Shown piece by piece: positions 46,660 through 52,599 of a stretch of DNA of 64,000 nt. The number at the start of each line of letters is the position of its first letter. The first letter of the stretch is position 1. Both the position numbers and the translations under genes were made by a program. The stretch spans positions 2,336,001 to 2,400,000 of the forward strand of contig OZ253496.1 of NCBI GenBank assembly GCA_965262115.1. The letters run 5' to 3'. Under the pieces are notes generated by a model. That model did no database searches and was not told the DNA's origin. It saw only the letters and a list, made by a program, of their open reading frames with translations. The DNA comes from Nitrospinales bacterium (GTDB lineage: Bacteria; Nitrospinota; Nitrospinia; Nitrospinales; VA-1).

Positions 46660-47972
46660 TTAATCTGGCGGGGAAGAAGGTTGCTGTTCTTCCGAGGTTT
46701 CCTCGTTCTCCTGACTGATGAGAGATTCTTCCTGCTCTGCCTGTGCGGCCGCCTTTTGTTCAGCTTCGATTTTGGCCAGTTCCTGTTCCTGGCGTTTTTT
46801 GTAAAGCTGATATTCGACCACCATCTGCGGCTTGATTTTGATCGCCAGGGGAATATTGACGGTGCTGCACGAGCGCATGCAGACTCCGCACCCGGTGCAG
46901 ATATTTTTGTCGATAACCGGCTTGTCGTTGACCTGAAAAATCGCTCCGGGAACCGGGCAATCGATCACGCATTGCTGGCAGAACGTATCGCCATAGGCCT
47001 GGCATTTTTTCTTGTCCAAAATGGCGTAGCCCATATTCACATCCGTCAGCTCCTGGACCGGGAGCAAGGCTTTATCCGGGCAGGCTGAGATGCAGGGCAG
47101 GTCGGTGCACATCACACACGGATTGCGCATGGGGTCGATATAAGGTGTGTTGAAAACGAGGAACCCCATTTTCTTGGGCGCGCGCAAGATGGCATCCTTG
47201 GGACAGGCGTGGATGCATTCGTCGCAACGGGAACAGGCTTGCAAAAACTGTTTTTCAGAAATCGCGCCCGGCGGTCGCAACAGAGGAACCCGCTTGGTGA
47301 TCTTGTCCACCGCTTTGTTGACACTGTCAATTTTGCTTTGAACTTTTTCTACGGTGGGCTTGGCGAAAAAGTGGACGCCCTGACGCAATATATTGCGGCG
47401 GTCGTATTCCTTATCCTCAACCTCTTCGAGTTGGAAGATATTATGGCCCACCTCAGCTTCGGTGGATGCTTCTACAGGTTCGACCTCTGGTTCCGAGTCG
47501 GGCTCAAGCTCTCCTCGAAGCAAACGCTTCTCTTCGGGACTTTCTTTAAACCGGGATATCAGGCGCTTAAAGAACCCTTTTTTCGGGGCAGGTTCGGCCT
47601 CATCTATTTCTTCGGCACCTTCCACTTGTTCGACATTTTCGACTCCCTCGGCCTCTTCAACGAGTTCGGGTTCAGCAGGAGTCTCATCCTCTATGGGTGT
47701 TGGGGATTTCGTTTTGGCTTCCTCTTCCACTGCAGTGCCGAAATCCAGGAAGTTGCCGAACGAAAATATGTCCCGACGCGACATTTCCCGGGGTTCTTCT
47801 TTGACCGGTTGAGGGGTGATGGTGTCTTTATCCAGACTCATGGGGTTCGGTTCAATCTGGGCGCTGGAGTGGTTTCCGCGCTGGTCCTCGTCGATAAGAT
47901 CTTCAACGCCCCGTTCGGTGTTTTTCTTTTTCCCTTTAAAGGTTTCTTTTGCGAGATGATGTCTAAACTTCA
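46660..47972 (-). CDS. NapG/MauM/NapF-type multi-4Fe-4S ferredoxin with long acidic N-terminus
   Basis: LRPPGA, CSRCDECIHACP, CVMC..PCISACP, CQQCVIDCP, CTGCGVCMRSC; start uncertain. Confidence 0.85.
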
Positions 47973-48104
47973 TGGTTGTTTCCGGCGAGCCGCCGGGGGC
48001 AATTTGCAATGATTCGTTGAGCCGAGAATACGGTTGCTAGCAGTGATTAAGTTATTGCCAGTTGTACCCCTTCTACCCCTTCTACCCCTTTGTATGTTGT
48101 TCAT

Positions 48105-48312
48105 AAGGGGAATTTGTAGTAGTTGTACCTGTGAGCCCTGTGGGAAGCCGGTTTTGTGTTTTCCACAAGGCTCACAGGGTTTGATTCAGGGCACAATAGA
48201 TCGTTTACCCCTTGGGCTTTTAAGCCCGTCCCGAAGCGCAGATCGTTGTGTCCTATTTTGATTAACCCGAACAGTTGCCTGGGCCACTGAGCCCGCATCG
48301 GCAAGGCTGGGA
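48105..48312 (+). ncRNA. Bridge RNA (5' hairpin, target-binding loop, donor-binding loop); ends approximate
   Basis: Hairpin 48128-48178; target loop 48188-48254 with guides TTTACCCCT and CCCGAAG; donor loop about 48266-48311 with ACAGTTGC and GCAAGG. Confidence 0.85.
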
Positions 48313-48321
48313 GACCAAATT

Positions 48322-49272
48322 ATGAATCAGAAACCCCATTTTATTGGCATCGATATTTCTAAACTCCATCTGGATGTTGCTGACAGCATGACTCAAGAAA
48401 CCTGGCAAACCGCTAACAATGAAGAAGGGATTGCTGGTTTGGTCGAGAGTTTATCCGCCTTAAATCCTCCATTGATCGTTTTGGAAGCCACAGGCGGCTT
48501 AGAGATCCCGTTGGCTTCGGCCCTGGTTGCGGGTCGACTGCCAGTAGCCGTGGTCAACCCACGGCAAGTTCGTGATTTTGCCAAAGCCACCGGGAAACTG
48601 GCAAAAACCGATGTCATTGATTCTCTTGTGCTGGCCCATTTTGCCAAGGCCATACGTCCTGAGGTCAGGAAAATCAAAGACGAAGAATCTCTTGAACTCT
48701 CAGCTCTAGTGACACGCCGTCGCCAGTTGATCGAGATGCTGACCAAAGAAAAAACCCGTCTAAAACAAGCTCCAAAATGGATATGTAAAGACATTAAGGA
48801 GCATATCGAATCTCTTAAAAAACGCTTGCGAAAAATCGATGGCGACCTTTCCAGAACCATCAAAAACAGTTCTGCCTGGCGTGAGCACGACCAGATCATA
48901 CAAAGTGTTCCCGGTGCCGGTCCCGTTCTGGCTGTCAACCTCTTGGCCGGGGTTCCGGAACTTGGAGTTCTTAATCAGAAGCAAATCGCCGCCCTCATCG
49001 GTCTCGCTCCCCTCAATCGGGACAGCGGAAAGTTCCGGGGCCGCCGGTGTATCTGGGGCGGCCGCGCCAATGTGCGTGCCGCTTTATACATGGCCGCCGT
49101 CACTGCCATGCAGCATAATCCCGTGATTCGTACCTTTTACACACGCCTCATCGAAAAGGGCAAACCCTTTAAAGTTGCCATTACCGCATGCATGAGAAAG
49201 TTATTAACGATCATCAATACCATGATCAAAACAAAAACACTCTGGAATGAAAATCTCATTGCCAGCACTTGA
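48322..49272 (+). CDS. IS110-family DEDD recombinase/transposase
   Basis: GIDISK (D), LEATGG (E), KTDVIDS (DxxD), SVPGAG, GLAPLNRDSGKF (catalytic Ser), RAALYMAA. Confidence 0.97.
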   Translation: MNQKPHFIGIDISKLHLDVADSMTQETWQTANNEEGIAGLVESLSALNPPLIVLEATGGLEIPLASALVAGRLPVAVVNPRQVRDFAKATGKLAKTDVIDSLVLAHFAKAIRPEVRKIKDEESLELSALVTRRRQLIEMLTKEKTRLKQAPKWICKDIKEHIESLKKRLRKIDGDLSRTIKNSSAWREHDQIIQSVPGAGPVLAVNLLAGVPELGVLNQKQIAALIGLAPLNRDSGKFRGRRCIWGGRANVRAALYMAAVTAMQHNPVIRTFYTRLIEKGKPFKVAITACMRKLLTIINTMIKTKTLWNENLIAST

Positions 49273-49287
49273 CATTTAACACAGTTG

Positions 49288-49358
49288 CTTCGGGGCATGA
49301 AAGCCAATGAAGAGGGCATAACAGGGGCATGAAACTTTTGGAAGAGGATATCACAGCC
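49288..49358 (-). repeat. Two tandem REP-like repeat copies; the first is interrupted by the IS110
   Basis: CTTCGGGGCATGAAAGCCAATGAAGAGGGCATAACA followed by GGGGCATGAAACTTTTGGAAGAGGATATCACAGCC. Confidence 0.85.
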
Positions 49359-49417
49359 CCTTGCCTTCGGCAGTCGCGTTAGCGTTACTGCCGCGCTGCC
49401 ACTGGCGGCCTCGCCGA

Positions 49418-49912
49418 TTAGAGCCAACCGTTTTCTGTGGCGATATTGTTATAGTCGTGCCAGTTTTGCGCGTCTGCGTTTTCGAGCATATATTCATCCA
49501 TAGCCAGTACTAATGGATGGCCCTTGTTGACAAAGGATTGCACCGTCGGAAACCGCAAAACAAAAGTGGTGACTGCGGCTTTACCCAAAGTCATGATATT
49601 CGGATCTTTTGCTATAGCCTTGAGGACTTCTTCAGCATTTTCGGGAGTGATCGACTGGAACAATTCCGCTGTTTTTTCTTCCAGTTCAGGATGATCATCG
49701 CAAGCGACGGCGGCGAGCATCTGCAACTCAAGAATCTTTTGATAGTCGGCTTCGTCGTATTCCCCTTCCATACGACCTTCTTCCCAGGCCGATCCCTCCA
49801 AATTACGTTCCCCCGGGCTGTCTCTACGTTCAGACGTTTCTGAAAATGCCAGATTTGCTTCATCCAGCAGGATTTTGGCTTTAACTTCCGCGCTGGTTTC
49901 TGTGTTGGACAT
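49418..49912 (-). CDS. Acidic hypothetical protein
   Basis: 164-aa ORF with protein-like composition; GGAG upstream. Confidence 0.75.
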   Translation of the reverse strand: MSNTETSAEVKAKILLDEANLAFSETSERRDSPGERNLEGSAWEEGRMEGEYDEADYQKILELQMLAAVACDDHPELEEKTAELFQSITPENAEEVLKAIAKDPNIMTLGKAAVTTFVLRFPTVQSFVNKGHPLVLAMDEYMLENADAQNWHDYNNIATENGWL

Positions 49913-50115
49913 GACTTGTTTCGTGCTCCATTTTAACTATGGGTTGATACCGGGGGTCACTGCCGAGTCTGGCTCCCCTGGGTATTTTAGGAAACTTTCC
50001 CGATTTTCGCCCGATTTTGATTAAAGGTATAGATGGCAATATGTTAGCATTAACCCGATAGATTCCAAAAAATTAAAAGCGATTCACCGAAAGAACTGCG
50101 TTTAAAGGAACCTGT

Positions 50116-51939
50116 ATGAAAAAGGTCATGTTGATATTTCCGCCGGAATGGGTGCCTACCGCCCCTTATTTGGCCCTGCCGAGCCTCGCCGCGGTTCTGC
50201 GTAAAAACGGCATAGAGACCGTGCTCAAGGACATCAATGTGGAGATGTTTGACCACTTCTTCACGTCCGGATTCCTGTTGTTTGTCAAAAGCAAAATACA
50301 AGCCCGGTTGAAAACGCTGATACAAAAAGAGTACGGAGAAGCGTTGAGTCCGGAAGACGCCGAGCTGAAACAAATGCTCAGCGACTACCAGCATATCGAC
50401 CTCGACCACCATATCAACAAAGTGGCTCGCGCCAAGAGGATCATGCGTGGGCCGGAATTTTATGAGATCGAGAAAGCCGAATGGGCGCTCAACGCTTTCA
50501 GGGAAGTGATGGAATATATTTCTGTCTGCTACTTTCCTGCCAGCATCAATTTTTATCCGGTCGAGAGCAACCTCAACGTGTACCGGCCCTGGGTTTCTGA
50601 AGACCTTTTGAAAGTGCCGCACGACAAGACTGTCAATGTTTATGCCGACATCTGCCGACAGTTGGTGTTGCGGTCGATTAAAAAAGAACAACCCGATGTC
50701 GTTGGCATTTCCATCGGCACCCCGGTGCAACTGATGGCAGGCATAACCTTTGCCACTTTGATCAAGGAGGCTTATCCCGACATCCATGTGACCGTGGGGG
50801 GCAACATCATCACCCGGCTCAAGGGTGAATTTGCGAAAAAGCCGCATTTCTTCGGCAAGGTATTCGACTCGATGATCACCTATGAGGGCGAGCACGCTTT
50901 GGTCTGGCTGGTGGAAGCGCTATCAGGCAAACGAAAAATGTCCGAAGTTTCCAACCTCATCTACAAAGATGAGGAAGGCAATATGCATGTTAACGACACC
51001 TATCAAGAACAGGTCACCGAACTGCCACCGCCAGATTTTGACGGCATGCCCTGGGAAAAATATTTTTCGCCGGAAAAACTCGTGCCCTATTTGGGCACGC
51101 GTGGCTGTTATTGGGGGAAGTGTACGTTCTGCGATCACGGTGCCGGTTATATCGACCAGTTCCGCGCCAAGCACGCCGACCAGATCGTCGATGAACTGGA
51201 ATACCTGAAAAATAAACTCAACACCAAACATTTCATGTTCACCGATGAGTCGTTTCCGCCAGCCCTGTTCATCAAACTGCCGCCGATGATGGTCGAACGT
51301 GAGCTCTATATTTACTGGACCACGCTGATCCGGTTTGAATCGCAACTGCTGGAGCCGAAGTTGTGGGACATGGCGCACAAGTCAGGTTGCCGGTCATTGT
51401 ATTACGGGCTGGAGTCGGCCAACGAACGCATCATCAAATTGGTTAAGAAAGATACCGATATAGAAGCGGCAAAAATCAACCTGACACAGGCCAAGCGGGT
51501 GGGTATCTGGAGCCACGTGATGTGTTTTTACGGATTCCCCTCAGAAACCGAAGCGGAGGCTGAAGACACGCGGCAGTTCCTGCTGCAGAATCAGGATATG
51601 ATTCCATCGGTCGAGATGTATTTTTTCGTGCTCTATAAAAACGCGCCGGTGATGTTCCAGAAGGATGAGTACAAGATTACAGTGAAGGATAACCCCGAGC
51701 ACGACCTGGCTTTGGATTATTATTACACTCCGGAGTCGGGCCAGACCACCGAAGAGGCGATGACGCGTTACGAAAACTTTTATCGTGACGATTTTGATCC
51801 ATGGGCAATGCGCATCAATGCCCGTGAACATGTGTTCCTCTACATCACGCATTTCGGCACCAGCGATTTGCCCCACCTTTACGTGAAAAACGATCCCGAA
51901 TCCCACGAACGCAGCATGGCTCCTGAACTGATGCTGTAG
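50116..51939 (+). CDS. Cobalamin-binding radical SAM protein
   Basis: N-terminal FPP..PYLA, B12 domain PDVVGISI..VGGN, RGCYWGKCTFC, GLESAN. Confidence 0.93.
   Translation: MKKVMLIFPPEWVPTAPYLALPSLAAVLRKNGIETVLKDINVEMFDHFFTSGFLLFVKSKIQARLKTLIQKEYGEALSPEDAELKQMLSDYQHIDLDHHINKVARAKRIMRGPEFYEIEKAEWALNAFREVMEYISVCYFPASINFYPVESNLNVYRPWVSEDLLKVPHDKTVNVYADICRQLVLRSIKKEQPDVVGISIGTPVQLMAGITFATLIKEAYPDIHVTVGGNIITRLKGEFAKKPHFFGKVFDSMITYEGEHALVWLVEALSGKRKMSEVSNLIYKDEEGNMHVNDTYQEQVTELPPPDFDGMPWEKYFSPEKLVPYLGTRGCYWGKCTFCDHGAGYIDQFRAKHADQIVDELEYLKNKLNTKHFMFTDESFPPALFIKLPPMMVERELYIYWTTLIRFESQLLEPKLWDMAHKSGCRSLYYGLESANERIIKLVKKDTDIEAAKINLTQAKRVGIWSHVMCFYGFPSETEAEAEDTRQFLLQNQDMIPSVEMYFFVLYKNAPVMFQKDEYKITVKDNPEHDLALDYYYTPESGQTTEEAMTRYENFYRDDFDPWAMRINAREHVFLYITHFGTSDLPHLYVKNDPESHERSMAPELML
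51835..51939 (+). repeat. About 100-bp direct repeat, copy 1 (3' end of radical SAM gene)
   Basis: Matches 52600-52702. Confidence 0.9.
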
Positions 51940-52072: not shown

Positions 52073-52321
52073 ATGGCGAAGGCATCAGCAAGAATTTCAT
52101 TTGTAACTGCGAAAGGGAAGCGCAAAAAGCTAGACCAGATAGCGGGAGCTTTTGGGACCAACCTTAGTTCTGTTATCAATGATGCGCTGGACCAATATAT
52201 AGATTTGCACCAATGGCAGTTGGCTCATATTGAAAAGGGAGTTAAGGCAGCTAAAAAAGGCGACTTTGCGTCCGATAAAGAAGCGGACACGTTTTTCAAC
52301 AAATATGGGCGAACTTCATGA
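52073..52321 (+). CDS. CopG/RHH-type antitoxin
   Basis: LDQIA..S.VINDALDQY..WQLAHIEKGVKAA..GDFAS. Confidence 0.85.
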   Translation: MAKASARISFVTAKGKRKKLDQIAGAFGTNLSSVINDALDQYIDLHQWQLAHIEKGVKAAKKGDFASDKEADTFFNKYGRTS

Positions 52322-52599
52322 GGGTTAGTTGGACCCGGCAGGCGTTGGATGACCTGCGCCATCTGCATGAGTACATCTCCGAAGAGAGTCCTCAGGCCGC
52401 AGGCGAGATGGTTTCACGCATCCATCAAGCGGCTACTGTCAATCTGAAAGAGCACCCCAGAATGGGTAAAAAAGGACGCGTTCCCGGCACCCGCGAACTT
52501 GTGCTTGCCGGTACGCCTTATCTGCTGGTATATGTTTTGGCAGAGCCTGAAATCCACATTGTCACTGTCCTCCATGCTTCCCGCCGCTGGCCTGATTAA
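52318..52599 (+). CDS. RelE/ParE-family toxin
   Basis: WTRQALDDL..YI..P.AA, GRVPGTRELV..TPY, VLHASRRWP; ATGA overlap with the antitoxin. Confidence 0.92.
   Translation: MRVSWTRQALDDLRHLHEYISEESPQAAGEMVSRIHQAATVNLKEHPRMGKKGRVPGTRELVLAGTPYLLVYVLAEPEIHIVTVLHASRRWPD

What the first reader, a model, noticed from the sequence alone, without database searches (positions are those of the whole stretch)
48266..48311. Donor-binding loop encodes the element's own circle junction
ACAGTTGC (48271-48278) is identical to the right-end sequence 49281-49288 just inside the CT core. It is followed by an inner GGGC-CACTGA-GCCC hairpin that uses the same GGGC/GCCC stem as the target loop. GCAAGG (48301-48306) can then pair with the junction CTTTGT using two G:T wobbles. 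The predicted donor is ACAGTTG[CT]TTGTAT, a variant of the IS621 donor ACAGTAT[CT]TGTAT as I recall it. The right-guide assignment is the weaker part.
Basis: partly seen in the sequence, partly recalled or inferred. Interest (0 to 1): 0.7.

Follow-up and report, generated by a model that had tools for sequence, protein, structure and literature searches.

The report
Ordinary bridge-RNA donor loop, corrected

Summary
The motifs are real. 48266-48312 is the donor-binding loop of an IS621-type IS110 bridge RNA, upstream of an intact 316-aa recombinase. The predicted donor is wrong by one base. 25 of 26 left junctions in this genome, and 146 of 146 found in 160 related loci, read CT-TGTAT; only this copy has an extra T. 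The donor is ACAGTTG[CT]TGTAT, which occurs 424 times in Durrant 2024's supplementary file 5 (extra-T form: 0). The right guide reads as in IS621: CAAG opposite CTTG, one G:T, two looped-out bases. G48306 is the handshake base, not the core partner: it is U in 6 of 77 related clusters, and all six have A at target position 7. The left guide matches the right end in 70 of 75 clusters, including 9 joint changes. The extra T is present in public contigs. It most likely comes from a target one base longer (4 such empty sites exist), which would give a TT left core and still a normal circle. No circle junction or RNA was seen. The scan has noted other IS110 bridge RNAs on other DNA. New member of a known kind; low interest.

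The parts
48082..48088 (+). Left target half (CTACCCC), one base offset from the usual NNTACCC; start of the ~40-bp hairpin repeat that the element inserts into
   Evidence: assignment inferred from the right-guide register
48089..48090 (+). Left core, TT in this copy (CT in 25 of 26 left junctions); equivalently CT at 48088-48089 plus one extra T
   Evidence: extra T present in contigs of runs X1, X2, X3
48091..48095 (+). Right donor half TGTAT (element left end)
   Evidence: invariant in 77 of 77 related clusters (the pattern required it) and 146 of 146 left ends
48093..48098 (+). -10-like hexamer TATGTT; 17 bp from the -35 across the canonical circle junction (18 with the extra T)
   Evidence: promoter function inferred from IS621
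48128..48178 (+). Inverted repeat, candidate 5' stem-loop of the bridge RNA
   Evidence: sequence, inner part folded; role by analogy with IS621
48204..48212 (+). Left target guide TTTACCC-CT
   Evidence: matches left flanks of the copies
48230..48238 (+). Right target guide CCCGAAG (48230-48236) and target-loop handshake CG (48237-48238)
   Evidence: 23 of 23 intact main-type right flanks CT-TCGG; 2 variant copies have CGCAG with CT-GCGG; 53-58 of 61 matches per position in relatives
48266..48269 (+). Donor loop closing stem, 5' strand CCCG (partner GGGA 48309-48312 region)
48271..48278 (+). Left donor guide ACAGTTG-C
   Evidence: identical to the right end in 70 of 75 clusters, 9 joint changes
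48281..48294 (+). Inner hairpin GGGC-CACTGA-GCCC of the donor loop
   Evidence: all four outer pairs form in 70 of 83 clusters, with G:C to A:T (5) and C:G to A:T (15) double changes
48297..48305 (+). Right donor guide AU-(CG looped out)-GCAAG
   Evidence: 6 Watson-Crick pairs plus one G:T with CTTGTAT; same layout as IS621 A157-G165
48306..48307 (+). Donor-loop handshake guide GC; G48306 faces target base 7
   Evidence: G:C 69, U:A 6, G:T 2 of 77 clusters
48322..49272 (+). IS110 recombinase, 316 aa, D11/E55/D97/D100 and S235
   Evidence: PF01548 and PF02371 above cut-off; IS621 E=5.8e-30, ISCro4 E=9e-33; motifs
49269..49274 (+). -35-like hexamer TTGACA in the right end
49281..49289 (+). Left donor half ACAGTTG plus right core CT (element right end); AAC at 49278-49280 complements GTT at 48096-48098
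   Evidence: 26 of 26 right ends; 3-base inverted flank complementary in 40 of 64 clusters
49290..49296 (+). Right target half TCGGGGC, rest of the hairpin repeat
   Evidence: 26 of 26 right flanks continue with CGGGGC

Best explanation
This is the donor-binding loop of an IS621-type IS110 bridge RNA gene, whose guides spell the donor ACAGTTG[CT]TGTAT and would pair with the circle junction as in IS621, while this copy's extra T likely came from its target. Shown by sequence: the guides, the two ends, their joint changes in relatives. Inferred from IS621: the circle rebuilds a TTGACA-17-TATGTT promoter; the left guide pairs with the bottom strand of ACAGTTGC; the right guide pairs with top-strand CTTGTAT with two bases looped out; after top-strand exchange G48306 pairs with target base 7 and target-loop C48237 with donor G7. 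Inferred for this copy: it landed in a one-base-longer form of the target repeat (TACCCC-TTTC-GGGGC). The right guide set the cut after the second core base, so the left junction kept the target's TT and the right junction the donor's CT. Its circle would then be the normal one.
For: Intact DEDD/Ser recombinase. 25 of 26 left junctions in the genome and 146 of 146 in relatives lack the extra T. Guide equals right end in 70 of 75 clusters against a permutation mean of 52.5, maximum 61 in 100,000; 9 of 14 departing clusters change on both sides, on at least five separate branches of a quick tree, and again in L166-L168 and L176. Base after CAAG against target base 7: U:A in 6 of 6 clusters and 19 of 21 loci, in cyanobacterial, Dehalococcoidia and Burkholderia elements, while the donor core stays C. 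IS621's own RNA has the same layout. The 14-mer occurs 424 times in Durrant's file 5 and the extra-T form 0 times. Spacer 17 versus 18. For the target origin of the T: the TTTC form is 4 of 38 empty sites that match the right target guide, two more filled copies are offset by one C, and top-strand cleavage after the core with TT tolerated is reported for IS621.
Against: No circle junction in any of 8 runs laid (contigs only), so the donor is deduced, not seen. The right guide and right donor half are almost invariant, so they give no direct covariation. True guide/end mismatches exist: L067, L073, L076 (position 3), L096, L064, L075. L166-L168 have A at the handshake position, which pairs with none of their target bases; L053 and L058 have U without A. 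The second handshake base C48307 does not pair with target C6. The naked-RNA fold closes the loop by pairing the two guides. Permutation counts ignore kinship, and the tree is the quick one with 40 of 83 forks open. The empty allele of this site was not found: five orthologous loci lack both element and repeat. The two closest paralogous empty sites have the normal TTC loop.
Confidence: 0.9

Rival explanations
1. Same loop and same donor, but the extra T is a later one-base slip in the C4-T2 run beside a variable 9-bp repeat, or an error of the insertion reaction, not a feature of the target.
For: The 9-bp repeat just left of the junction varies in number between runs X1 and X2/X3. The nearest paralogous empty and filled sites are normal. 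Another copy (C1:2282898) lacks one T at its right junction with no matching empty form.
Against: The commonest longer empty form is exactly the one needed (4 of 38), and two other filled copies are also offset by one base. This rival concerns only the origin of the T (about 0.4 against 0.55 for target origin) and predicts the same circle.
Confidence: 0.4
2. One reading: the donor carries the extra T and GCAAGG pairs with CTTTGT through two G:T wobbles, G48306 facing the core C.
For: The pairing can be drawn for this copy, and the extra T is real in contigs of X1, X2, X3.
Against: 23 other copies carry this left donor guide and none of the 25 other left junctions has the T. The position is U in 21 related loci and A in three more while the core stays C. 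The form is absent from the searched supplements. It would stretch the promoter spacer to 18.
Confidence: 0.03
3. The extra T is an assembly error.
For: It sits in a homopolymer and occurs in 1 of 26 left junctions.
Against: Contigs carrying the unique left flank match through 48119 with no other letter in X1 (possibly the source sample) and in X2 and X3 (one further sample, same study).
Confidence: 0.04

Closest known systems
IS621 bridge RNA and recombinase (IS110 group; Durrant 2024 PMC11208160; Hiraizumi 2024 PMC11208158; Hiraizumi 2026 PMC13626964)
   Same: Long left end with two loops, 8-base left donor guide, AU-(2 looped)-GCAAG right guide, handshake dinucleotides, CT core, right donor half TGTAT, junction promoter, DEDD plus serine recombinase, insertion into a dispersed palindromic repeat.
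   Different: Donor positions 6-7 are TG, not AT, with the matching change of the target-loop handshake (CG for AU). The target is NNTACCC[CT]TCGGG. The protein is distant (E=5.8e-30) and groups with Nitrospinaceae elements.
Uncharacterised IS110 orthologues with donor ACAGTTGCTTGTAT in Durrant 2024 Supplementary Data 1 and 2
   Same: Identical 14-base donor (188 and 424 occurrences) and near-identical donor loops.
   Different: Four longer strings specific to this element's junction, target and loop were not found there (files 3 and 4 are cut, file 2 unreadable).
ISCro4 / IS622 (Perry 2025, 10.1101/2025.05.14.653916; PDB 9t56)
   Same: Same 14-base two-loop recognition and handshake scheme.
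   Different: Distant protein (E=9e-33); different guides.
ISPpu10 (10.64898/2026.03.19.712850) and ISPpu9 (PMC12288879)
   Same: IS110 elements that land in multi-copy intergenic repeats with a stem-loop (abstract; listing).
   Different: In ISPpu10 the stem-loop lies 5' of the target; here the core lies inside the hairpin. A structural requirement was not tested here.

Membership tests
IS110 group bridge recombinase (IS621 type) | RuvC-like DEDD domain PF01548 and Tnp domain PF02371 with catalytic serine | tested here: met
   D11, E55, D97, D100, S235
IS110 group bridge recombinase (IS621 type) | Long non-coding left end, short right end, no long terminal inverted repeats | tested here: met
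   about 230 bp left, 17 bp right of the stop codon; only a 3-4 base inverted flank
IS110 group bridge recombinase (IS621 type) | CT core at both ends | tested here: met
   26 of 26 right ends and 25 of 26 left ends; this copy reads TT or CT plus T on the left
IS110 group bridge recombinase (IS621 type) | Left donor guide covaries with the element's right end | tested here: met
   70 of 75 clusters, 9 joint changes; exceptions listed
IS110 group bridge recombinase (IS621 type) | Right donor guide complementary to core plus right donor half | tested here: met
   complementarity in the IS621 register; both sides nearly invariant, so no covariation
IS110 group bridge recombinase (IS621 type) | Target guides covary with flanks; handshake base covaries with target base 7 | tested here: met
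   three exceptions
IS110 group bridge recombinase (IS621 type) | Circular intermediate with the joined ends | tested here: inconclusive
   no such joint in 8 of 8 runs, all contigs, which drop rare forms
IS110 group bridge recombinase (IS621 type) | RNA is expressed, binds the recombinase and directs recombination | not testable with these tools
   no RNA holder listed; needs bench work
IS1111 group | Long right end and 7-17 bp sub-terminal inverted repeats | tested here: not met
   right end is 17 bp; definition from PMC11208160 passage

The most novel reading that the evidence does not exclude
This genome is a natural specificity experiment. The element parasitises the hairpin of a ~40-bp mobile repeat that occurs with four loop bases; the main guide hits only the T form and a variant guide only the G form. 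Three of 26 left junctions record insertion into targets one base longer, so the right guide alone fixes the cut and a bridge recombinase can leave unlike cores (TT and CT) at the two ends of one element that still excises a normal circle.
Probability: 0.5. Interest if true: 0.4.

Novelty: new member of a known kind. Interest (0 to 1): 0.2.

Why it matters
As flagged it adds one more orthologue to a described mechanism, with a donor already in the discovery paper's data. Its modest value: a multi-copy element with an intact recombinase (316-aa frame in 15 of the 26 left-end records) and a large natural target set. If the extra T is target-derived, it shows that one-base slips between the two target guides are tolerated in nature, which bears on off-target prediction for bridge editors.

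Tried and rejected
Rfam gave nothing meaningful over 47000-50500: two sub-threshold hits. Folding alone does not show the open loop; the minimum-energy fold pairs the two donor guides, and forcing the left guide open gave another fold. My first two parsers failed: one search found almost no right ends (wrong spacing), and mis-picked guides (56 of 70). One search is the corrected count and fixes positions 1-2 as AC on both sides. Circle junction: not seen in 8 of the 24 listed runs that I laid; contigs cannot show absence. No RNA holder listed. Orthologous empty site: five loci examined, none with the repeat. The plasmid search gave only distant IS110s and was not followed. No plus-strand promoter was found in the linear element. 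A half-match origin (10.64898/2026.08.31.748434, parts 1-2 of 6 read) for the odd copies was considered; the site at C1:2144783 resembles neither donor half by eye. No structure or complex prediction was run, as it would not change the verdict. Paper searches showed no Nitrospina IS110 paper among the 25 listed of 52, and none on bulge tolerance beyond one unrelated listing; this is thin, and bioRxiv supplements were closed.

Full report
Observation. ACAGTTGC stands at 48271-48278 and at 49281-49288, the hairpin at 48281-48294 and GCAAGG at 48301-48306. About 0.002-0.003 copies of the 8-mer are expected by chance in the left end. They lie in the non-coding left end of an IS110 element with an intact 316-aa recombinase: PF01548 and PF02371 above cut-off, related to IS621 and ISCro4, with D11, E55, D97, D100 and S235.

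Copy census. The genome holds about two dozen near-identical copies. Of 26 left junctions, 25 read CT-TGTATG and only the window's copy reads CT-T-TGTATG. All 26 right ends read ACAGTTG-CT. In 160 related loci (the best 80 of 149 in genomes and 80 of 388 in metagenomes), a left end was found in 146, and all 146 have the form without the extra T although the pattern allowed up to three. The donor is therefore ACAGTTG[CT]TGTAT. Across the canonical junction TTGACA and TATGTT are 17 bases apart, and 18 with the extra T.

Left guide. One locus per cluster at 85% identity was used; both parts were parsed in 75 of 86 clusters. Guide and right end are identical at 7 of 7 bases in 70 of 75 (positions 1-2 fixed by the parser); permutation mean 52.5, maximum 61 in 100,000. 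Fourteen clusters depart from ACAGTTG, nine on both sides alike (ACAATCG, ACGGTTG, ACAGCTG, ACAACTG, ACAGTCG), on separate branches of a quick tree of 86 proteins (40 of 83 forks open). Of the five discordant clusters, L144 is a parsing slip, L020 has an insertion in the guide, L078 has a doubtful end, and L067 and L076 are true mismatches. L073, L096, L064 and L075 also mismatch at one base. Kin are not independent, so the permutation overstates.

Right guide. In the IS621 structure, RDG A157-U158 and C162-G165 pair with the donor top strand, G161 faces T12, two bases flip out, and 166-167 are the handshake guide (passages); the IS621 RNA row in the supplement shows the same string layout. 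Here A48297, U48298 and G48301-G48305 give six Watson-Crick pairs and one G:T with CTTGTAT. The two variant copies and several relatives have A at the wobble position. Against: L166-L168 have A there and pair with neither target nor core, and the second handshake position shows no pattern. The inner hairpin forms all four pairs in 70 of 83 clusters, with double changes. Naked-RNA folding closes the loop, so the open form is inferred from the IS621 complex.

Target side, as a check on register. The right target guide predicts the right flank at 53-58 of 61 clusters per position, against 16-21 by shuffling. In this genome the target is the hairpin of a ~40-bp repeat with 145 empty copies; the main guide sits only in the T-loop form and the variant guide in the G-loop form. 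Earlier notes of this scan describe what is likely the same repeat; I checked its presence and consensus, not its mobility.

The extra T. It is not an assembly slip: contigs with the unique left flank match through 48119 in X1 (possibly the source sample) and in X2 and X3 (one further sample of the same study). The longer loop TTTC is the commonest variant among empty sites that match the right target guide (4 of 38), and two more filled copies are offset by one C. IS621 cuts the top strands after the core and accepts TT cores. Insertion into the TTTC form in the right-guide register gives exactly this copy's two junctions: TT on the left, CT on the right. This is inference. A later slip gives the same sequence; the closest paralogous sites have normal loops, and five orthologous loci lack the repeat. 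Either way the right guide would find TGTAT behind a TT, and the circle is predicted to be normal.

Not shown. No circle junction appeared in the 8 runs laid (contigs only), and no RNA holder was listed. Whether excision is cut-out or copy-out is disputed for IS621 (PMC13626964, parts 1-2 of 8 read; 10.64898/2026.08.31.748434, parts 1-2 of 6 read) and was not tested.

Papers seen. PMC11208160: abstract, passages, supplement searches. PMC11208158: abstract, passages. 10.1101/2025.05.14.653916: passages. 10.64898/2026.03.19.712850: abstract. PMC12288879: listing only. bioRxiv supplements were closed and may list this or a closer orthologue.

Verdict. A real donor-binding loop of a known kind of system, with a published donor sequence. 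New member of a known kind; interest 0.2.

Noticed in passing
window 48083-48089 and 49290-49330; 145 empty copies in G000: The target is the hairpin end of a ~40-bp dispersed repeat (TACCCC-TNC-GGGGC, a GNA triloop on the other strand); 26 of 26 right flanks continue as this repeat. It is likely the mini-module of earlier notes e1-7659261, e1-7659257 and e1-5050192. It carries no donor motif by eye, so nothing suggests that this recombinase moves it.
   Followed up: partly
G000:C1:1834462 and C1:1931073: Two divergent copies (about 87% alike, broken frames) have right target guide CGCAG and sit in the G-loop form of the repeat, while 23 of 23 intact main-type right ends sit in the T form (empty sites A 41, G 41, T 32, C 31). 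One natural guide switch.
   Followed up: yes
G000:C1:2144620-2145978: The first 163 bases of the left end are duplicated; the second left end starts at a CT inside the first copy's bridge RNA gene. Possibly an off-target insertion followed by collapse.
   Followed up: partly
G000:C1:2034322: Copy whose flank joins directly to the DNA coding the left target guide, which repeats 11 bases of the left junction; the first ~115 bases are lost.
   Followed up: partly
G000:C1:2282898: Partial copy whose right junction lacks one T; no matching empty form in the genome.
   Followed up: partly
G000:C1:2519313-2519435: Two truncated left ends lie tail to tail as a long inverted repeat.
   Followed up: no
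G000, nine left flanks, e.g. C1:657571, 1418004, 1775113: Nine copies share one left flank, and empty versions of that flank also occur: the element rides in or repeatedly hits a larger repeated element. Six copies share a 10-base deletion that truncates the recombinase to 264 aa.
   Followed up: no
L018, L020, L025 (cyanobacterial loci): A stretch of about 20 bases interrupts the left donor guide, which would inactivate these copies' RNA.
   Followed up: no
window 48065-48090: A 9-bp tandem repeat left of the junction has one more unit in runs X2 and X3 than in the window and X1.
   Followed up: partly
window 48279 and related loci: The base after the left donor guide is T in only 6 of 75 clusters, so the guide-coding DNA rarely spells a full CT core; this may keep it from acting as a donor (inference).
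   Followed up: no
window 52073-52599: A short two-gene pair (82 aa and 93 aa) that looks like a RelE/ParE-type toxin-antitoxin module, by recalled resemblance only.
   Followed up: no
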